A program made the translations under genes and the position numbers. A DNA stretch of 62,576 bases, the filler included, from Pirum gemmata (lineage: Eukaryota): NCBI GenBank assembly GCA_002812295.1. It is 20 parts of 20 records of this genome, joined end to end, with 100 filler letters (N's around TTAATTAATTAA, not from the genome) between each part and the next. Parts side by side here need not be neighbours in the genome. Positions count along the whole stretch, not along the records: positions 15,802 to 18,673 come from PDIN01004267.1; 19 more parts are not named here. One strand, written 5' to 3'. Below, piece by piece: positions 1 through 55,000 of the stretch. Numbering within the stretch: position 1 is the first letter of the stretch; each line of letters opens with the position of its first letter. The notes under the pieces were generated by a model. It did no database searches. It saw only the letters and a list, made by a program, of their open reading frames with translations, and was not told where the DNA came from.

Positions 1-217
1 AATTATTAATTATTAAATTATTAATAATAATAATAATATTTTCAAAGTTGATATTGTTGCTGTTACTATTGCTATTATCATTGCCATTTTAACTGTCCTT
101 GATGGTATATATATTATAGACGTTATTATATAAATAGTTAGTTAGTTAGTTAGGATGGGTTATTATTATTATTATTATTATTATTTTATTATTATTCATT
201 ATTAATATTTTTATTTA

Positions 218-2407
218 TTGTACTCATTTTTGGGTTGTAAAAGTGGAATAGAAAATGTGGTTAACGGAGTATCTGGTTCACGCAAAATACTTGAAAATGT
301 TGATGATTTTAATTCGGACCAATTAACGATCGAAAACAATGCATTTAATCGTGAAACTTATTTTAATCAATACGGAAAGGAATGTAAAACTCCCCTTATT
401 GCTGTGCTAACTACAATTTTTAAGCCAACTAAAGCAGTGGAAAATTTATGTAGACAAGGAATCCCAATGATCGTCATTAGTGACAGAAAATCACCAAAAA
501 ACTATACTGTGCCGAAAAATTGTAAATTGGATTATTATGATGTAGATAGACAAAAAAAATTAGAAATCGAAGACAGTGAATTAGGGAAATTTGTAAAACT
601 GATGCCTTGGGATCATTTTGGAAGAAAAAATATTGGTTTTTTATTGGCGGTAAAACAAGGTGCTTGTAAAGTTTGGGATTTTGATGATGATAATTGGCTG
701 ATCACAAAATTGAAAGATAAAATAAAGGGAAATGATTTAATTTTCAACAAGCAAACTATAGGAATCCGGCCTGCATCACATACACCTACACTTTTTCCAG
801 TAGTAAACCCATATACGATTTTTGGGCCCTCAAATTGGTATTGGCCTAGAGGAACCCCTTTGGAACAGGTTTCAGTATCAGAAAGAGATAGTTTAAATGT
901 TGAATTTGTTCGTGTCAAAGCTACTACTTACAAGAAAGTAGCTGTATACCAGGCTTCAGCTAATGGTAATCCTGACGTGGATGGTATTTTTCGACAAACT
1001 CAAAATTTTAAAATCCATTTTAAATCATACTTGGATCATATTTTAATGGATAACAAAGTATTTTGCCCCTATAACGCCCAAGCTACTTTACATACAAGCA
1101 TTGGATTATGGGCTACTTATCTTCCTATAACAGTACCAGGTAGAGTATCAGATATCTGGCGTTCATATTTTTCACAAGCCATTTTTAAGGTTTTAGGCTA
1201 CCACATCGCATTTGCAAGTTCGTGGGTACAGCATGATCGTTCTGCACACGATATTATTAAAGACATTAATGCTGAACGTGACTTACGTGATTTAGCAGGA
1301 CCTCTCAGTAAGTTTTTGAAAAAATGGGCAATAAAGAAGGAGGCGATTGCAGGTATATGTAGTGATGAGCTTTTATTAATTCTTTATCAAGACTTGTACT
1401 CTAGAAGAGTAATTAAAAAGGAGGATGTACGTGCAATAAAACAATGGCTTAAAGCAATGAATGAAAGTGGAATGTTTTTCCCATGCTCACCGAAAAAAAG
1501 TAAAGAAAAGTTTTCTCTCTCGCCAGTTTTCCCCCATAAACTCGATGCACATTACGGTGTTCATATTAATTCTAATTTTTGGCAAATTATTGGCCTTTGG
1601 CAAGCCATGTACTCTGCTCAATATAAATCAGTAACCTTTAACTTATTAAATTATGATTCAGTAAGGCAGTATAGATATTCGTCTTTCCCGTGGCAAACAC
1701 GTTTTACACCTTTGTCAGAGCAAATGACGAATAGGCATGTAACTGGAAGCTTGTCGTACAGTACTCTTTTGCATACCTTAAGAGATGCTGAAGTGAAATC
1801 GAACAATATAGTATGGGGTCATGATGATTTGTTTGTCGGCTATCATGCTGTCAAAAGATGGATAGATACAGAGAAAGAAATTGTTTACGGACCATTTGGT
1901 GGTTTTTTGGGTCCTATTTCTAGTTGGCGTAATTCAAATTGGTTAAATCGTTGGCCCTCAGCTATAAGTGCAGCTAAAATGTTCATCAGTGACAATTGCA
2001 ATGGCTATATACCTAATTATAAATGTAATAGTAAAAATGAAAAATTATTTAGAGGAGGAGCTTCTGATTTCTTTTTCGGAAAGCGGTCTGCTCTAAGTAA
2101 AAATTTTTATGAAACTCTTGGTGAATTTTCAACCAGGGGTTTCCATTTGGAAATTGCTTTAAGTACGGCTGTATATCTCGAAAAAACTGGTAAGAAATTT
2201 GAAGAACCAAATTTATTAACTTGGTGGGATAGAAATAGGGACAATATCGATTTGCAAAGTAAATATTTTAAAAAGAACGAGAATACCGACAGTGTTCACC
2301 CTGTAAAACTTTCAAGTCCATTTAACTTATTTAAGTTAATTGGTATGCGTGATTTATCATGGAATCGCGCCGTTAAATCAAAACCAAACCAAACCGAAAC
2401 AATGTAA
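218..2407 (+). CDS. STELLO-like (DUF288) putative glycosyltransferase; the 5' end probably lies in an upstream exon
   Basis: Family motifs in order: VISDRKSP, PWDHFGRKNIGFLLAV..GA..VWDFDDDN, VNPY..FG...WPRGTPLE, ANGNPDVDGIF, PYNAQAT, LPITVPGRVSDIWRSY.SQ, plus a second HDD-containing domain. The ORF starts at TTG. A hydrophobic stretch (VDIVAVTIAIIIAILTVLD, about 47-104, followed by GTATAT) may be the anchor exon. Confidence 0.85.
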   Translation: MYSFLGCKSGIENVVNGVSGSRKILENVDDFNSDQLTIENNAFNRETYFNQYGKECKTPLIAVLTTIFKPTKAVENLCRQGIPMIVISDRKSPKNYTVPKNCKLDYYDVDRQKKLEIEDSELGKFVKLMPWDHFGRKNIGFLLAVKQGACKVWDFDDDNWLITKLKDKIKGNDLIFNKQTIGIRPASHTPTLFPVVNPYTIFGPSNWYWPRGTPLEQVSVSERDSLNVEFVRVKATTYKKVAVYQASANGNPDVDGIFRQTQNFKIHFKSYLDHILMDNKVFCPYNAQATLHTSIGLWATYLPITVPGRVSDIWRSYFSQAIFKVLGYHIAFASSWVQHDRSAHDIIKDINAERDLRDLAGPLSKFLKKWAIKKEAIAGICSDELLLILYQDLYSRRVIKKEDVRAIKQWLKAMNESGMFFPCSPKKSKEKFSLSPVFPHKLDAHYGVHINSNFWQIIGLWQAMYSAQYKSVTFNLLNYDSVRQYRYSSFPWQTRFTPLSEQMTNRHVTGSLSYSTLLHTLRDAEVKSNNIVWGHDDLFVGYHAVKRWIDTEKEIVYGPFGGFLGPISSWRNSNWLNRWPSAISAAKMFISDNCNGYIPNYKCNSKNEKLFRGGASDFFFGKRSALSKNFYETLGEFSTRGFHLEIALSTAVYLEKTGKKFEEPNLLTWWDRNRDNIDLQSKYFKKNENTDSVHPVKLSSPFNLFKLIGMRDLSWNRAVKSKPNQTETM

Positions 2408-14572: not shown

Positions 14573-15801
14573 AAAGAAAAAGAAAAAAAGAAAAAAATTT
14601 AATGCGATTCATAATTTCATATTATTATGAAAAAAGGCTGTGAAAAAAAGAAAGAAAATGAGAGAGCATTATTACATCATTTTCAGGTTTAAAAATTAAA
14701 ACTGGTTCACTGTTGCCAGCTCTGTAACACTTCTGTAATCCCTCTGTTGCCGAACTTGCCTTCCTAGACTTGCTTGCCTTCGAAAATAAAAAGTTAATCA
14801 TAAATATTTATTACTAAAAGTAATGTGCTCTTTTCTAAATATGGTTTAAATATTATTATTTTTGTTCATAAAAGCTCAAAAGATACTAAAAAAAGTAATT
14901 ATGGGTTATCTCTGGAAAACCCCCCTCTCTCCTATTTTTTTCTTTTTCTTTTTTTTAAATAAAGTAAGCGAATCGAATTGGCTGTAGATAAATTTCGATT
15001 TGATTCGTTGGTTAAAATTTTTCAACCAAAAAAAGATTGCACCTGCAGCTGAGGGCAGGTAAGGAAGGTCAAGTAGCGCGATAGGTATTAGGTAATAGGT
15101 ACCCGGTATTATTACAAGTAAGGTGGGATAACACCTCTAACTAAAAAAAATAAATAAAAATTATTTTTAAAAAAAATAAATAGGGGTGAGATGACGTCAT
15201 TTTATTATTACCGAGCAGCTGGAACTTTTCCGATTTTTATGGTTTTTATTACTATTAATGTTAATATTATAACTTTAATTGTTATCTACTATAATTAGAT
15301 TTACTATTTTAAGCTATTTAACTGCTATTATTAGTAAAGAACACGGAACCAAGGTTGGCTCGATAAGCATATGTTCGAAAAAAGTTCCAGTAGCACTATA
15401 CCGGTAGATGCATATCCCTGCTTTTTTTTTTTTTTTTTTAAAAAAAAAATTTTCAGCTGCGGGCCCTACTAAGCTAGACTATAGTCCACGTAGTAGACTA
15501 ACCCTAACCCTAACCCTAACCCTAACCCTAACCCTATTAAACCCTAACCCTGTAGCCTATGGCCCGATATGTAGACTATGGCCCGAGATGTAGGAGAAGG
15601 ATAGCTACAGGCAGTTATTATCATAGGATAGCTGCTAGCTAGCTCTAGTAGTTGACTAAGGGAGCGTTCAAATAATACGTCACGTCAAGGGGTAGGTAGG
15701 TNNNNNNNNNNNNNNNNNNNNNNNNNNNNNNNNNNNNNNNNNNNNTTAATTAATTAANNNNNNNNNNNNNNNNNNNNNNNNNNNNNNNNNNNNNNNNNNN
15801 N

Positions 15802-15832
<31 letters not shown>

Positions 15833-16481
15833 TTTATACTGTTACTAAACACACCGTATTTGGTCACCGTATTTGGTAAATGTTACTTTCAAAGACTACA
15901 TATTTGGCAAACATCTCTTTTTTAGGTAGAACGCACCAATTAAGTGTGGATGCTAAAAGCAGTCTAAAAGCTATGCTAACTAAAGTCTAACTAAAGCTAT
16001 GCTAACTAAAGTCTCTAATAAAGACTTAGTTATGAAATTGTAATGTCATTGTGTTATTATTATTATTTTTTTTTAATCAACACTCAAGGCGGATAAAATT
16101 TCAAAAACAAACACTCCAAAAACCTTTCATAATTATTTCAGAAATCGTCTTTATTAAAATATAATTTGAGAAAACTAACCCTAACCCTAACCCTAACCCT
16201 AATTAATAACTAAGCTCTAGTAGTGAGAAAACATACACATATAAGACGTAGAGGACGTAGGGGCTAAGACGCTGGTTAGCTAGCTAGTTAGCATTTTCTA
16301 GCAAAAAATCAGTGTTGTTTTTCAAAGAAGAGCTGGAGCATGTAATATTTGAGTATAATAAAATTATGAACCCAAGAATTGGGCCCATTGACTCATTGTG
16401 TTTAGTTTAAATTATTTTTGTTTCATATATTAATATAATTGGATTGATTATTTTGATTACACCCAAAATTTGGTAATTTTA

Positions 16482-16668
16482 TTGTGCTTTTCATTTACTT
16501 TCTCACCCCGAATAATTATTTGGTTGTTTATAATATTTAAATTGATACTTTTAAATAAATAAATATATAATAAAATATACCAAATTAAATGAAATGGATT
16601 TATATTGTATTATTTTGGTACTATTTATTGTATAATATTTATGACGACAAAATAACTGAAAAGCACGA
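16482..16668. mobile_element. About 190-bp MITE, TA|T(C/T)GTGCTTTTCA...TGAAAAGCACGA|TA; further copies near 4937-5088, 9127-9230, 21295-21482, 49750-49931, 50125-50263, 52753-52838, 53340-53503, 56387-56520
   Basis: About 12-bp TIRs with flanking TA; conserved internal ATATACCAAATTAAAT.AAATGGATTTATATTGTATT; about 9 copies in unrelated contigs. Confidence 0.85.
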
Positions 16669-16982
16669 TAAATGGTAACTGTTGTGTTTGTTCTTGTCGC
16701 TGTTGAATTTCTTAAAATAATTTAATACTACTAGTCGATAATATTATTCTTGATTCTTTTTTTTTCTAGCTTTTTTTTTTTATTTTAAAATTAATAATAT
16801 ATATATTTTTTTTACAACCCCATCCACTGCCGGTAAAAGATACATATATAAAGGTTATAAATAATAATGCAATTCATCCTTTTTATTTATTCTAACAAAA
16901 ATATTTATATTGTAAATAAAATTAACTCAAGAAAAAAAAAACAAACTTTTTAATTAATAATTAAAAATTAATTGTAATAATT

Positions 16983-18383
16983 ATGTTGATATTTACTGTT
17001 TCAAAATACTTAACGTTTTTTTCAAAATTTGAATTAATCATTATTTATTTATTAATACTGCAATGCAATAGTAAAGATATTCACAGAGATGGGGTAAGAA
17101 TCATTGAAAATACCGATCCTAATGCTAATTTTTTCCCAGGTAGTTCATTGTTGAAATATAATATTATGTAAATTGGTTTCTTATTAATCGGTTTATTGCA
17201 AAAATAATTTCTAATATTTATGTTCTTTGTAGACGGTTAGGTTAAAATGTATTATAATAATTATTATTAATAATATTCAAATATTGAATGACTGTTATTA
17301 ATTTTCATAAAATTAATTTGGAATTCGACTTTATAGTTATCTTAATTAAAACTTAAGTGTTATTTTTGTTTTAAAAAATAATGAATAATTTACATTTTTT
17401 AATAATTGTTAAATTATTATTCTTTCAGTGTTATTTTTATTGTTGTTATTGATGAAGTATAGTATAATGTAACCCTGACTCTAACCCTAAACTTAATCCT
17501 AACATCAACCTCAGCCTTAACCTTAACCCTAACCTTAACCTTAACCTTACCCTAACCTTTACTCTTAACCTTACCCTAACCCTTACTCTTACCCTAACCA
17601 TTACTCTTAACCTTACCCTAATCCTTACTCTTAACCTTACCCTAACCCTTACTCTTATCCTAACCCTAATCTTAACCCTAACCCTAACCCTAACCCTAAC
17701 CCTAACCCTAACCCTAACCCTAACCCTAACCCTAATCCTAATCCTAATCCTAATCCTAATATTTAATTTAATATAAAAGGTGATAATGATCCGATTCTGA
17801 GTGATTTTACGGTCGAATCTCCAGATACACCTTTTGTTCGACTATATCAAACTGAACAATTTTCCTATAACAAAGTTNCCCTAACCCTAACCCTAACCCT
17901 AACCCTAACCCTAACCCTAACCCTAATCCTAATCCTAATCCTAATCCTAATATTTAATTTAATATAAAAGGTGATAATGATCCGATTCTGAGTGATTTTA
18001 CGGTCGAATCTCCAGATACACCTTTTGTTCGACTATATCAAACTGAACAATTTTCCTATAACAAAGTTGCCTGGGACTTAGCTGCCAATGAAGCTAATCT
18101 TTTTTTTAGACACCAAAGTAAGCCAGACGATGGACCCTGGGTAAGCTCGTTTAGGATATCAGGTCAGGCACTAGCAAACTCATTTGCGATAACGCGAGAG
18201 AAAGTGCTAATTGGTAGTTATAATCAGTTGGGCAGAGATGATCAAGTTATTGATTTGGAGGTAAATGGCAATGTTTGTGCTCGAGTTGCAAAAAGTGGTA
18301 GTGGTCGTACTAAAGTTTGTATAGGTGATCTTTTGGAAAGAATTCAAACTTTAGAAAACATAATACAAGATTTACGAAATTAA
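16983..18383 (+). CDS. Spliced, probably secreted protein of about 189 aa resembling a bacterial tail-fibre-like beta domain with a C-terminal coiled coil; exons 16983-17139 and 17971-18383
   Basis: The phase-1 donor CCAG|GTAGTT and acceptor AAAG|GT join in frame. Exon 2 (missed by the ORF track) is stop-free for 137 codons: GDNDPILSDFTVESPDTPFVRLYQTEQFSYNKVAWDLAANEANLFFR...SFRISGQA...DLLERIQTLENIIQDLRN. Exon 1 has a hydrophobic LIIIYLLILQCNS segment. Confidence 0.7.
17470..17950 (-). repeat. Intronic (CCCTAA)n/(CCTAAT)n and 24-bp variant arrays, including a 191-bp tandem duplication of the acceptor and exon start
   Basis: 17780-17878 is repeated exactly at 17971-18068. Confidence 0.85.
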
Positions 18384-18838
18384 TTAAAAAAATAAAAATA
18401 AAACGAATAAAACGAAAAAAACCATAGTGTAGCTCATAGTGCTATATATTTTACTATATTTATTAATTCATAGTGGAATATTAATTAATATTAATGTAAA
18501 AACGAAAACTGTTTTTACTAAACCTCAAAAAGTGTCCAATCCCATTCATAAACGCTACCAATTTTTAATTTGAAAAATTATTTACATAATATTGTTATTA
18601 GTAAACTATTATCATTATTATCATTATTATTTATTTATTATTATCATTATTATTATTATTATTATATATATTANNNNNNNNNNNNNNNNNNNNNNNNNNN
18701 NNNNNNNNNNNNNNNNNTTAATTAATTAANNNNNNNNNNNNNNNNNNNNNNNNNNNNNNNNNNNNNNNNNNNNCAGGTAATAATTAAATAGCACACAACA
18801 TTAATTTTATTCATTTATTTGAATTTCGTTATATTCAG

Positions 18839-19671
18839 GTCTCACCGTAAAGAACGCTTTTCAGGAAAAAGTCAAAGAGTTAAAAATAGACACAAACACA
18901 TTAAACGAAAAACAAAAAATAGATTTGCAAAAAGAATTCAATAAACTTGATGTTGCTAAGGATTATAAGGAGTTTATGCAAGGTACATCTAACACCATTT
19001 CTCAAATTACTGATGCACTTTTGGAAGCATACTACAGTAACGAAATGTTGACCAGCCAATTCAGCGAAATAAGTACACAAATTGGCTTAAAATGGAATTC
19101 CCCCAAATCCCCCCCTAAGGATCCCCAACGCTTGGCTAATGATGTAATCAATTTAATTAAAAATGATTATAATTTTTTTGGTGACGGATTGCATTTCAAA
19201 GCATTGGCTTACAGGAAACGAGGTGGTTTTGAGAATCACTGTATGAGTGTTTATGAAAATATAATTCCTGTGGCTCCAACTCGATCAGCAGAAAGCACTT
19301 ATAAACACAGCTATAAGACTTGGAAGACACAAAGCTATGGCTCAATGAGATTATGGAACAAGTCTGGTAAAAATGATGACCGTTATGTTTTTATTTTGAT
19401 GTATTCGCGTAATAAACAAAATCTCAACTTTAACGGAATTTCTTGGTGGACACCAAAAGACGAATGTCGAAAGCATGCAAGTAAATTTAATTTGTTCGCC
19501 CAAATTAAGGGTACGCACGATATTGGTATTGCTGGGGATGCAGAAATTAAATCAGTACATAACAAAGCTTTTGATAGAAAGGATTGTAGGACTTATTGTA
19601 GCGGTCTTTTTTATTGTAACGAAGTTTGTCATACTGTTAAAGAGTATTCTACAATGTTGGCGGTTAACTAA
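18839..19671 (+). CDS. Terminal exon of an unknown protein (helical N-part, Cys-rich C-terminus)
   Basis: A 62-nt intron GTAATA...TTCAG (18777-18838) precedes a frame open to TAA at 19671, with ordinary coding composition. Confidence 0.7.
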
Positions 19672-53977: not shown

Positions 53978-55000
53978 CCTTATGGCTTAGGGTTTAAGGT
54001 GTTGAGGGTGTTGAGGGTGTTGAGGGTGTTAAGGGTTAAGGGTTAAAGGGGTCATTAGGTGGTTGGTGGTTTAGGTGGTTGGTGATTTAGGTGGTGGTTA
54101 GGTGGCGGTTAGGTGGTGGTTTAGGTGGCGGTTTAAGTGGTGGTTAGGTGGCGGTTAGGTCACTCATCATCAAACAAATTAATAAATACAATATAGCAAC
54201 CCTAACCCTAACACTAACCCTAACACTAACCCTAACCCTAACACTAACCCTAACCCTAACCCCAACCCCAACCCCAACCCTAACCCTAACCCTAACCCTA
54301 ACCCTAACCCCTAAACCTAAACCTAAACCTAAACCTAACCCCTAACCCTAACCCTGATCCTAAATTTAACCGTAACCGTAACCGTAACCGTAACCGTAAC
54401 CCTAATCCTACCCCTACCCCTACCCCTATCCCTACCGCCTAACCCTAACCCTAACCCTAACCCTAACCCTAACCCTAACCCTAACCCTAATCTTAAACCC
54501 TAAACCCTAACCCTAATCCTAATCTTAAACCCTAAACCCTAACCCTAACCCTAACCCCAAATCACCCTAATAACCCTAACCCTAAATCACCCTAATAACC
54601 CTAACCCTAACCCTAACCCTAGTAGTAACCCTAATAACCCTAACCCTAACCCTATAGCTAACTACGTATACCCTAATCTAACCCTAACCTACCCTAACCT
54701 AACCCTAACCTAACCCTAACTAACCTAACCCTACTAACCTAACCCTAGCCTAACCTAATTATAACACTAACTACCCTAAGCCTAACCTAACCTAACCCTA
54801 ACTACCATAACCCTAACTACCCTAACCCTAACCTAACCTCACCCGAACCCTAACCCTTACCAACCCTAACACCAACACTAATTATAACCCTAACATTAAC
54901 CCTAACCATAAGCTAACTATAATAACCCTAACCCAACTCTAAGGTTAAAACCCAAACCCTATTTAAAATTAACCCAATCCTAATCCTAATTATAAGAACC
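53775..55000. repeat. Large compound telomere-variant array: G-strand variants (TTATGCG, TTATGGC, TTATGGA, GGGTGTTGA, TTAGGTGG) then C-strand (CCCTAA, CCGTAA, CCTAA)
   Basis: Direct reading; polarity switches at about 54160-54198. Confidence 0.9.

What the first reader, a model, noticed from the sequence alone, without database searches (positions are those of the whole stretch)
16983..18383. Intron-containing gene for a bacterial/phage tail-fibre-like domain (candidate domesticated HGT), missed by the ORF track
Seen: a clean two-exon model giving a signal-like N-terminus, then DTPFVRLYQ....Y....WDLAANEANLFFR......FRI...A..NS, a VLIG...LEVNGNV beta-repeat and a terminal heptad coil. From recall, not a search, this parallels bacterial hypothetical or tail-fibre-domain proteins with TP.(I/L)RLEQ...GG(F/W)..QTWD(I/V)AGNEANFF(V/I)RD.....LPFRI.PGA, often trimeric beta-structures ending in a coiled coil. 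Inference: a prokaryotic adhesin or fibre module repurposed as a small secreted eukaryotic protein. The spliceosomal intron argues against contamination.
Basis: partly seen in the sequence, partly recalled or inferred. Interest (0 to 1): 0.7.

Follow-up and report, generated by a model that had tools for sequence, protein, structure and literature searches.

The report
Bacterial fibre module in eukaryotic DNA
An AT-rich eukaryotic contig carries an intact reading frame for one unit of a trimeric fibre-shaft module otherwise found in bacterial surface fibres and some phage tail fibres, most likely a horizontally acquired gene, though its expression and splicing are unproven.

Summary
The sequence features are real. 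Frame 17958-18383 is open, and from the AG acceptor (exon 2, 17971-18383) it encodes 137 aa with no Met. Residues 9-105 score 40.4 bits (E 1e-14, Z=1) against a bacteria-only profile; the best of 2000 shuffles scores 9.9.

It usually lies upstream of Peptidase_S74. Pfam, NCBIfam and PHROGs do not cover it. It also occurs in three cyanophage tail fibres. By profile it links to the solved Bdellovibrio MAT fibre Bd2133 (8ond).

The C-terminus is a 2.5-heptad coil. A homotrimer is predicted (0.80 against 0.00 for controls).

GC3 is host-like (23%), there is no start codon, and a CCCTAA array ends 20 nt upstream. These argue for residence in eukaryotic DNA.

Weak points:
- Exon 1 (16983-17139) rests only on ATG, GT-AG and phase.
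- No RNA run was listed.
- The "intron" holds a 191-nt assembly duplicate around an n.
- The window is a chain of about 2.9-kb contigs joined by artificial spacers, so neighbouring genes prove nothing.
- The donor lineage is unresolved.

Verdict: a probable HGT-derived gene. Splicing, secretion and function remain inferred.

The parts
15802..18673 (.). The gene's own contig (2872 nt, GC 27%), bounded by artificial spacers N44-TTAATTAATTAA-N44. Only this stretch is physically linked to the gene.
   Evidence: Gap list. Spacer sequences. GC.
16983..17139 (+). Candidate exon 1 (52 codons plus 1 nt). It starts with the first ATG after an in-frame stop and encodes a hydrophobic, signal-like N-terminus (MLIFTVSKYLTFFSKFELIIIYLLILQC...). 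The donor is CAG|GTAGTT. Unverified.
   Evidence: GC is 18% for 16983-17070 and 35% for 17071-17139. No family similarity: 684 of 3000 shuffles of its tail score as well.
17070..17071 (+). Alternative in-phase donor (ATA|GTAAAG) from the same ATG. It would join the signal-like segment directly to exon 2.
   Evidence: Enumeration of ATG-plus-GT combinations.
17140..17970 (+). Candidate phase-1 GT...AG intron as assembled (831 nt). About 640 nt if the duplicate is collapsed.
17470..17759 (+). Telomere-like array inside the intron. It runs from degenerate CCTTAA/CCCTTA units to perfect CCCTAA units and then CCTAA x5. It ends 20 nt before the exon-2 acceptor in the collapsed sequence.
   Evidence: TRF. 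Sequence. Pattern scan.
17688..18069 (+). Two perfect 191-nt tandem copies either side of the single n at 17878. Probably an unmerged assembly overlap. It duplicates the acceptor and the first 33 codons of exon 2.
   Evidence: 190+190 matching bases. 3 of 6 single-n sites in the window show the same pattern.
17971..18383 (+). Exon 2: 137 codons plus TAA. It has no Met. GC is 38% and GC3 is 23%.
17994..18284 (+). One unit (residues 9-105 of exon 2) of the bacterial/phage fibre-shaft module. The family consensus reads ..TP..RLEQ...GF..QTWDvAGNEANFFvRD....LPFRIrPGAP..S..I...G.vGiGT..P...L.V.G.
   Evidence: Bacteria-only HMM gives 40.4 bits. BLASTP to P0008, P0006 and P0007 gives E 7e-11 to 4e-9 pairwise. 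Alignments A1 and A2.
18321..18377 (+). C-terminal amphipathic helix (residues 118-136, 2.5 heptads), predicted to be a three-stranded coiled coil. It is preceded by a Cys-flanked hairpin (C103, C117).
   Evidence: Sequence. AF2 helix 118-136 with block pLDDT 96-98. Trimer contacts 121-121, 125-125 and 128-128.

Best explanation
Exon 2 is the remnant of the 3' end of a bacterial (or phage-borne) trimeric fibre gene that now resides in AT-rich eukaryotic DNA. It encodes one divergent copy of a roughly 100-aa beta-helix shaft unit. This is the unit that bacteria repeat upstream of a Peptidase_S74 chaperone or another tip domain. A short C-terminal coiled coil follows the unit.

Shown here:
- The homology.
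- The intact frame.
- The host-like codon composition.
- The lack of a start codon.
- The telomere-like array next to the homology boundary.

Inferred, not shown:
1. The frame is expressed by splicing to a 5' exon at 16983-17139 (or 16983-17070), which supplies the ATG and a signal peptide.
2. The roughly 19-kDa product is secreted.
3. Three chains intertwine through the conserved motif (residues 18-24 against 35-44). They are held in register by the terminal three-helix coil, which stands in for the missing S74 chaperone.
4. The resulting stub fibre acts outside the cell as a binding or structural protein. It may bind bacterial or cell-coat glycans, as its bacterial relatives are thought to do.
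For: Homology:
- The search of 1.84 billion representatives gave 10 hits at E<=1e-3.
- On re-scoring, 7 of these 10 have single stretches of 13-26 bits over the motif.
- The bacteria-only profile (178 units) gives P0001 40.4 bits, E 1.1e-14 at Z=1. The best of 2000 shuffles is 9.9.
- P0001 keeps 22 of 41 columns that are at least 80% conserved in 120 bacterial rows. These include P18, R21, L22, Q24, W35, D36, N40, E41, N43, F45, R47, F61, R62 and I63.

Nature of the family:
- Peptidase_S74 was found in 3 of the 7 hits scanned, and phage Collar plus Gp10_C in 1.
- 335 short and 6298 long relatives were found.
- The motif's DNA pattern occurs in at least 119 stretches of prokaryote genomes from many phyla.
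- Tail fibre genes of 3 Synechococcus podoviruses match a canonical unit.
- The family profile hits the solved trimeric fibre Bd2133, 8ond, at E 8e-14 and 4e-11, over the whole unit.
- The MAT-fibre paper describes beta-helix shafts, a capping-loop motif V-G-G/N-pi-x-x-P-x-x-x-L, and S74 or other tips (PMC10769870, passages read).

Eukaryotic residence:
- GC3 is 23%, against 23-34% in the 8 other window ORFs read in frame.
- The frame has no Met, and a stop lies 4 codons upstream of the acceptor.
- A CCCTAA array lies 20 nt upstream. It is of the kind found in 23 arrays across the window's contigs.

Intactness:
- 141 stop-free codons in a 27%-GC contig.
- The AF2 model has mean pLDDT 77.8.

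Trimer:
- Scores 0.80, 0.81 and 0.80, against 0.00 for the best of 3 controls.
- Partner pLDDT 77-79; the runs agree in at least 90% of contacts.
- The tool's calibration: 21 of 30 solved homo-pairs reach the mark, and 0 of 23 single chains do.
- The calibration was made on two copies, not three.

Splice model: canonical GT-AG, matching phase, and the first ATG of its frame.
Against: - There is no transcript evidence of any kind.
- Exon 1 has no compositional or homology support in its first 88 nt, and an alternative donor exists.
- The intron (640-831 nt) is longer than the one other intron I could infer in the window, about 210 nt in the Kazal gene.
- The contig is only 2.9 kb, so linkage to undoubted eukaryotic genes is not shown.
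- P0001 sits on the 4th-longest of 205 terminal branches.
- It has lost 19 of 41 conserved positions. Two of these, G29 and D48, are 100% conserved in the bacterial rows.
- Its second capping loop is degenerate (P to Q, plus an insertion). This could mean relaxed constraint.
- P0001 alone finds no PDB chain of the MAT family. The link to 8ond is through the family profile.
- The trimer result is a model's confidence, not a measurement.
- Secretion and binding function are pure inference.
Confidence: 0.55

Rival explanations
1. Dead relic. A fragment of a bacterial fibre gene was inserted into eukaryotic DNA. It is not transcribed or spliced, and the 'exon 1' is a chance ATG-GT combination in AT-rich DNA.
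For: - The frame has no Met.
- Exon 1 is not beyond chance.
- Long branch and loss of 19 of 41 conserved positions.
- The frame lies in repeat-laden DNA.
Against: - 141 codons remain open in 27%-GC DNA, where I estimate about 8% of random codons are stops.
- GC3 has the host's value. Unless the donor was equally AT-rich, this implies long residence, during which an unconstrained frame should have broken.
- The heptad coil is intact, and the fold and trimer are confidently predicted.
Confidence: 0.25
2. Contamination or chimeric assembly. The frame belongs to an AT-rich bacterium or phage in the sample and was joined to eukaryotic repeats by the assembler.
For: - The contig is short.
- It contains an obvious assembly artefact 90 nt into the frame: the n at 17878 with its 191-nt duplicate.
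- The assembly is highly fragmented.
Against: - The frame is cut at its 5' end with no start codon, and no further family sequence is found anywhere on the contig or in the window.
- The CCCTAA array and the exon-2 start both lie inside each of the two identical 191-nt copies. The array-to-frame junction is therefore present twice.
- No close relative was found in 185,579 prokaryote species genomes or in IMG/VR by pattern plus tblastn.
- P0001 gave no tblastn hit at E<=1 in 50,697 phage records.
Confidence: 0.07
3. The immediate source was a eukaryotic virus or virus-like element (giant virus, virophage, polinton-like virus) carrying a fibre gene of bacterial type, not a bacterium. The locus is the remnant of such an insertion.
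For: - Paper listings show tail-fibre and intramolecular-chaperone proteins discussed in polinton-like viruses, giant viruses and virophages (PMC12220804, PMC13620141, PMC10741620; search listings only).
- The STELLO-like ORF on another contig of the window has its nearest Atlas clusters among Nucleocytoviricota. This is a lead only.
Against: - No relative of P0001 was found in IMG/VR.
- No other viral gene lies on the contig.
- All named relatives seen are bacterial or cyanophage.
Confidence: 0.12

Closest known systems
Unnamed bacterial 'tail fiber domain-containing protein' repeat unit, e.g. the Hymenobacter, Emticicia and Acidovorax proteins ending in Peptidase_S74 (P0012, P0133, P0209, L006, L051)
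   Same: It is the same roughly 100-aa unit, with the same core motif and the same following G-x-G...L-x-V-x-G loop. The profile score is 40.4 bits. Both are predicted trimers.
   Different: - The bacterial proteins are 400-2000 aa with 2-3 or more units. Many end in an S74 chaperone/protease (3 of the 7 first hits scanned) or another tip.
- The window protein has one unit, no S74 and no tip domain. It ends in a 20-residue coil.
- It has replaced 19 of 41 conserved positions.
- One bacterial fragment (P0102, named 'bZIP') also ends in a coiled coil.
Bdellovibrio bacteriovorus MAT (mosaic adhesive trimer) fibres: Bd2133 (PDB 8ond), Bd3182 and others (PMC10769870)
   Same: - The family profile aligns over a whole unit to the beta-helix shaft of Bd2133, chain residues 100-271.
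- Both are trimeric beta-helix fibres with capping loops of motif V-G-G/N-pi-x-x-P-x-x-x-L.
- S74 and non-S74 endings both exist (passages read).
   Different: - MAT fibres are about 1000 aa, start with a conserved roughly 130-aa beta-rich domain, and carry adhesive tips (TNF-like, C-type lectin, beta-sandwich).
- None of these is present here.
- P0001 by itself does not hit 8ond.
MYRF / MrfA (eukaryotic membrane-bound transcription factor with a phage tailspike-derived S74 ICA domain and triple-beta-helix stalk)
   Same: It is the precedent for a phage or bacterial trimeric-fibre element working in a eukaryotic protein as a trimerising device (PMC3742443, PMC3742440, PMC8326128; titles and abstracts seen).
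   Different: MYRF keeps the S74 domain and its self-cleavage, and is widely and vertically inherited. The window protein has no S74 (Pfam gives no hit at E<=10), is tiny, and has no known eukaryotic relatives.
Tail fibre proteins of T7-like cyanophages S-CBP1, S-B28 and KBS-S-2A
   Same: They carry a unit 33-35% identical to the canonical bacterial unit (E 1e-5 to 8e-5), in the gene next to the internal virion protein gene.
   Different: P0001 gave no tblastn hit at E<=1 in 50,697 phage records. These are 1169-aa virion proteins.

Membership tests
Bacterial/phage fibre-shaft repeat unit (unnamed; lies upstream of Peptidase_S74) | Significant match to a profile built from bacterial members only | tested here: met
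   40.4 bits, E 1.1e-14 (Z=1), residues 9-105. 0 of 2000 shuffles exceed 9.9 bits.
Bacterial/phage fibre-shaft repeat unit (unnamed; lies upstream of Peptidase_S74) | Core motif TP..RLEQ...GF..QTWD.AGNEANFF.RD....LPFRI.PGAP | tested here: met
   22 of 41 columns that are at least 80% conserved are kept (P18, R21, L22, Q24, W35, D36, A38, N40, E41, N43, F45, R47, P56, F61, R62, I63 ...). G29 to S and D48 to H replace residues that are 100% conserved. It is a divergent member.
Bacterial/phage fibre-shaft repeat unit (unnamed; lies upstream of Peptidase_S74) | Flanking loop motif G-x-V-G-I-G-T-x-x-P-x-x-x-L-x-V on both sides of the unit | tested here: inconclusive
   The first copy is cut by the exon boundary (G1..P5..F10 remain). 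The second (VLIGSYNQLGRDDQVIDLEV) has Q for the conserved P, plus an insertion.
Bacterial/phage fibre-shaft repeat unit (unnamed; lies upstream of Peptidase_S74) | Homotrimeric assembly | tested here: met
   Prediction only. Score 0.80 against 0.00 for the best of 3 controls, partner pLDDT 77-79, runs agree in at least 90% of contacts. The calibration (21 of 30 solved homo-pairs, 0 of 23 single chains) was made on two copies.
Peptidase_S74 intramolecular-chaperone proteins (endosialidase, tailspikes, MYRF) | S74 domain with the SDxxxK catalytic motif | tested here: not met
   Pfam gives no family at E<=10. The only S-D in the sequence (S8-D9) has no K four residues after the D.
MAT (mosaic adhesive trimer) fibres | Beta-helix shaft units related to those of the solved MAT structures | tested here: inconclusive
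   The family profiles A1 and A2 (P0001 is 1 of 8 and 1 of 121 rows) hit 8ond at E 8e-14 and 4e-11. P0001 alone does not. Fold searches with the monomer model gave Z<=4.3.
MAT (mosaic adhesive trimer) fibres | A conserved roughly 130-aa beta-rich domain after the signal peptide, about 1000 aa overall, and an adhesive tip domain (PMC10769870) | tested here: not met
   The whole predicted product is 189 aa. It has one unit plus a coil, and no room for either domain.
Expressed, intron-bearing eukaryotic gene of HGT origin | Canonical splice sites with compatible phase and a start codon | tested here: met
   ATG at 16983, CAG|GTAGTT donor, AAAAG|GT acceptor, phase 1. An alternative donor lies at 17070.
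Expressed, intron-bearing eukaryotic gene of HGT origin | Spliced transcript | not testable with these tools
   No RNA run could be listed for 17971-18450, so no reads could be laid.
Expressed, intron-bearing eukaryotic gene of HGT origin | Host-like composition and physical linkage to host DNA | tested here: inconclusive
   GC3 is 23%, as in other window ORFs, and the CCCTAA array lies on the same contig. But the contig is 2.9 kb and the window's other genes sit on separate, artificially joined contigs. No genome is held.
Expressed, intron-bearing eukaryotic gene of HGT origin | Relatives are prokaryotic or viral, not broadly eukaryotic | tested here: met
   All named hits are bacterial. 2 of the 120 listed long hits come from a eukaryote-labelled transcriptome, but they have a bacterial-type signal peptide and an S74 architecture. 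The donor clade is unresolved. Unannotated eukaryotic copies would be invisible to protein searches.

The most novel reading that the evidence does not exclude
The locus may be a fossil of how foreign DNA enters a eukaryotic chromosome.
1. The 3' piece of a bacterial fibre gene was captured at a broken chromosome end.
2. It was capped by telomerase. The (CCCTAA)n array ends 20 nt from the homology boundary and has the orientation of a left chromosome end.
3. That telomere was later internalised.
4. It became part of an intron when an upstream AT-rich stretch supplied a new ATG and signal peptide.

Only 1.65% of window positions lie within 45 nt downstream of such an array. This test was made after seeing the pattern, and such arrays are common in this genome.
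Probability: 0.1. Interest if true: 0.75.

Novelty: new member of a known kind. Interest (0 to 1): 0.45.

Why it matters
If it is expressed, this would be a second, independent case of a eukaryote putting a trimerising element from bacterial or phage fibres to use. MYRF's S74 domain is the first. Here the element is the shaft unit, not the chaperone, and a short coiled coil appears to take over chain registration. A one-unit, 137-residue version is also a convenient minimal model for folding studies of triple beta-helix shafts.

Separately, the search shows that a very common bacterial repeat has no model in the copies of Pfam, NCBIfam or PHROGs used here. The repeat occurs in at least 6298 proteins across many phyla, and its structure can be linked by profile to the Bdellovibrio MAT fibres. 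That gap is worth closing whatever the fate of the eukaryotic gene.

Tried and rejected
Family and sequence searches with exon 2 alone:
- Pfam, PHROGs and NCBIfam: no family.
- PDB by sequence: only chance rows at E>=0.5.
- Word-indexed search at near lengths: nothing.

Fold searches with the AF2 monomer:
- Foldseek against PDB and BFVD: nothing at E<=1e-3.
- VIA wide: best Z 4.3. T4 gp34 Z 4.1, rmsd 6.1, 64 aligned.
- VIA second look: best Z 3.8. P22 tailspike C-terminus Z 3.3-3.5.
- All are within the noise the tool describes. A single chain of an intertwined trimer is a poor probe.

Other attempts:
- Exon 1's tail (DGVRIIENTDPNANFF) as a relic of the capping loop: rejected. 684 of 3000 shuffles score as well.
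- RNA evidence: no RNA holder was listed for 17971-18450.
- Whole genome: none is held.
- Paralogues in the window: none.
- Close relatives by pattern plus tblastn: none in IMG/VR or in prokaryote genomes.
- Donor lineage: the FastTree tree used 205 units. 46 of 251 were dropped as at least 80% identical, and P0002, P0003, P0009 and P0011 were left out beforehand. P0001 sits on a long branch under a 128-tip clade with support 0.86, so no donor can be named.
- Three of the 10 first hits (P0003, P0009, P0011) were set aside. They are sums of many weak stretches, each at most 10.4 bits.
- Organism identity: Atlas look-alikes of a neighbouring ORF gave no lineage. I did not pursue which assembly this is.
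- Of the 3 bacterial loci examined for context, the ORF I scanned in L044 was on the wrong strand, so only 2 are informative.
Full report
**What is in the sequence.**
- The region is AT-rich (contig GC 27%).
- The frame 17958-18383 is open for 141 codons.
- From the AG at 17969-17970 it reads 137 residues ending in TAA (P0001).
- The frame contains no Met, and a stop lies four codons upstream of the acceptor. It therefore cannot be translated without an upstream exon.
The ATG at 16983 is the first in its frame. There are 52 codons plus one base, a CAG|GTAGTT donor at 17139/17140, and phase 1 matching the acceptor.
- All the quoted peptide strings are present.
- The terminal coil is a true heptad pattern: I118, L121, I125, L128, I132 and L135, spaced 3-4-3-4-3 (read).

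**Two corrections to the picture.**
- The single n lies at 17878. It sits exactly between two perfect 191-nt tandem copies, 17688-17878 and 17879-18069, with 190 matching bases on each side.
- Each copy contains the end of the CCCTAA array, the acceptor and the first 33 codons of exon 2.
- Three of the six single-n sites in the window have such flanking duplicates. I read this as an unmerged assembly overlap. The real intron would then be about 640 nt.
- The window is not one piece of chromosome. Nineteen spacers of the form N44-TTAATTAATTAA-N44 (stops in all six frames) join pieces of about 2.85 kb.
- The gene's own contig is 15802-18673.
- The STELLO, EGF/LRR, CBM1, Kazal and NEDD4_Bsd2 genes elsewhere in the window show what kind of organism the assembly comes from. 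They are not proven neighbours.

**Homology.**
- Exon 2 alone finds nothing in Pfam, PHROGs, NCBIfam or the PDB by sequence.
- A full HMMER pass over 1.84 billion representatives gave 10 proteins at E<=1e-3, the best at 2e-8.
- On re-scoring, seven have single stretches of 13-26 bits over the motif. Three are sums of many weak stretches, and I set them aside.
- Pairwise BLASTP aligns 104-122 residues of P0001 to single units at 29-32% identity, pairwise E 7e-11 to 4e-9.
- A profile built only from bacterial units (178 sequences) scores P0001 at 40.4 bits, E 1.1e-14 for one comparison. The best of 2000 shuffles is 9.9.
- P0001 keeps 22 of the 41 columns that at least 80% of 120 bacterial rows share. 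It has replaced two that are 100% conserved, G29 and D48.
- It is a genuine but strongly diverged member.

**What the family is.**
- Searching with the alignment found 335 short proteins.
- It found 6298 long proteins at E<=1e-5 among the 8000 candidates scored.
- Names given by the sources are 'hypothetical', 'tail fiber (domain-containing) protein', 'Peptidase S74 domain-containing', 'Chaperone of endosialidase', and once 'bZIP' for a fragment ending in a coiled coil.
- 90 of the 116 stored long hits contain at least one unit covering the profile core.
- The motif's DNA pattern occurs in at least 119 stretches of prokaryote genomes. These span Acidobacteriota, Bacteroidota, Pseudomonadota, Planctomycetota, Verrucomicrobiota, Chloroflexota, Actinomycetota and Patescibacteria.
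- In Emticicia aquatica and Acidovorax delafieldii the genes lie among housekeeping genes, not in prophages. The third locus was not properly examined.
- P0007, P0010 and P0012 begin with signal-peptide-like sequences, judged by eye.
- A canonical unit also matches the tail fibre genes of three Synechococcus podoviruses (six records, E 1e-5 to 8e-5). In S-CBP1 this is the 1169-aa gene next to the internal virion protein.
- The family profile hits solved structures of Bdellovibrio fibres. 8ond (Bd2133) scores E 8e-14 with A1 and 4e-11 with A2, the latter alignment running through a whole unit. 8oml, 8ol4, 8ojn and 8on4 are also hit.
- The paper on these structures (PMC10769870, passages read) calls them MAT, mosaic adhesive trimers. 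They are surface-displayed trimeric beta-helix fibres of about 1000 aa. They have capping loops of motif V-G-G/N-pi-x-x-P-x-x-x-L, also noted in MyRF. They end in an S74 chaperone/protease or in other adhesive tips.
- The unit found here is therefore best described as a beta-helix shaft unit of that broad class of fibres.

**Structure.**
- AlphaFold2 with 121 aligned rows gives mean pLDDT 77.8.
- The model has a four-strand meander (residues 19-62), further strands, and a helix at 118-136 with block pLDDT 96-98.
- No fold search with this monomer gave a match above noise.
- A three-copy prediction scored 0.80, 0.81 and 0.80, against 0.00 for the best of three controls. Partner pLDDT was 77-79, and the runs agreed in at least 90% of contacts.
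- The tool's calibration is 21 of 30 solved homo-pairs and 0 of 23 single chains. It was made on two copies and mostly on microbes, and the tool's caution is that a pass may reflect likeness to solved complexes.
- The closest contacts are like-with-like in the coil (121, 125, 128). Others join conserved-motif residues 18-24 of one chain to 35-44 of another.
- This suggests that the family motif is the trimer core. That is an inference.

**Is it eukaryotic DNA?**
- Exon 2 has GC 38% and GC3 23%. The 8 other window ORFs that were read in frame have GC3 of 23-34%.
- The frame is cut at its 5' end, with no start and no further family sequence on the contig or in the window.
- The CCCTAA array ends 20 nt before the exon. 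It is one of 23 such arrays scattered over the window's contigs.
- The array-to-exon junction lies inside both identical 191-nt copies.
- No close relative exists in 185,579 prokaryote species genomes or in IMG/VR by the pattern method.
- P0001 gave no tblastn hit at E<=1 in 50,697 phage records.
- I put contamination at about 7%.

**Is it an expressed two-exon gene?** This is the weak link.
- The splice sites and phase fit. But the first 88 nt of exon 1 have 18% GC, like the flank. Only 17071-17139 looks coding, at 35%.
- A second in-phase donor lies at 17070.
- The resemblance of exon 1's tail to the capping loop is not significant.
- No RNA run could be listed.
- For function: the frame is open in DNA where I estimate about 8% of random codons are stops, the coil is intact, and the fold is confidently predicted.
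- Against function: the branch is long, 4th of 205, and conserved residues have been lost.

**Origin.**
- The tree places P0001 under a 128-tip clade with support 0.86, so no donor can be named.
- Two eukaryote-labelled hits come from a protist transcriptome. They have a bacterial-type signal peptide and an S74 architecture, and are probably bacterial sequences in that sample.
- A eukaryotic-virus intermediate cannot be excluded (listings).

**Verdict.**
- The observation on exon 2 and the recalled bacterial parallel are confirmed.
- HGT into a eukaryote is the best reading.
- The splice model, secretion and 'domestication' remain hypotheses.
- It is a new member of a known kind (HGT-derived gene; a phage or bacterial fibre element in a eukaryote, as in MYRF; PMC3742443, PMC3742440, PMC8326128, abstracts seen).
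- It is moderately interesting in itself. Its value is limited by the fragmentary assembly and the lack of expression data.

Noticed in passing
window 3822-59720 (19 sites, e.g. 15702-15801 and 18674-18773): The window is a concatenation of about 2.85-kb contigs joined by identical artificial spacers, N44-TTAATTAATTAA-N44 (stops in all six frames). Gene order across spacers carries no information. Any first-stage finding that relies on neighbours in this window should be re-read with that in mind.
   Followed up: yes
window, 23 arrays (e.g. 2617-2669, 15502-15531, 37330-37533, 54278-54836): Short interstitial telomere-like (CCCTAA)n arrays occur on both strands in most contigs of the window. 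There are 97 matches to CCCTAA x3 with up to 1 mismatch, where 0 are expected. This density is unusually high.
   Followed up: partly
window 26526 and 60950: Two further single-n positions are flanked by perfect direct duplicates (period 103 with 102+102 bases; period 186 with 85+36 bases). They look like the same unmerged-overlap artefact as at 17878. Frames crossing them will be falsely extended or broken.
   Followed up: partly
bacterial proteins P0007, P0010, P0012, P0054 and relatives: The roughly 100-aa unit (TP..RLEQ...GF..QTWDvAGNEANFFvRD....LPFRIrPGAP) occurs in at least 6298 proteins. It has no model in the Pfam, NCBIfam or PHROGs copies searched. It is a candidate for a new domain family, with 8ond as a structural anchor.
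   Followed up: partly
window 206-2407 (+): A 733-aa single-exon ORF has a STELLO glycosyltransferase domain (Pfam E 7e-14). By language-model features, two of its three nearest Atlas clusters are mostly Nucleocytoviricota. This is a lead only.
   Followed up: no
window 38335-38736 (-) and 38777-39187 (+): An ORF with cysteine/histidine-rich, zinc-knuckle-like spacing that I read by eye as retroelement-gag-like (not tested). The peptide ITEITTYIPKPKYQIIAFIPTSINIKS is encoded on both strands about 40 nt apart, so there is an inverted duplication at this site.
   Followed up: no
window 18823-19671 (+), on the next contig: A 282-aa open frame, Cys-rich towards its C-terminus, with no Pfam family at E<=0.01.
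   Followed up: no
P0141 / P0155 (protist transcriptome entries in EukProt): These are 1767- and 1608-aa fibre proteins with one full unit (46 bits), many capping-loop repeats, PF26696 and Peptidase_S74, and a Bacteroidota-style signal peptide. They are probably bacterial transcripts in a eukaryote-labelled data set.
   Followed up: partly
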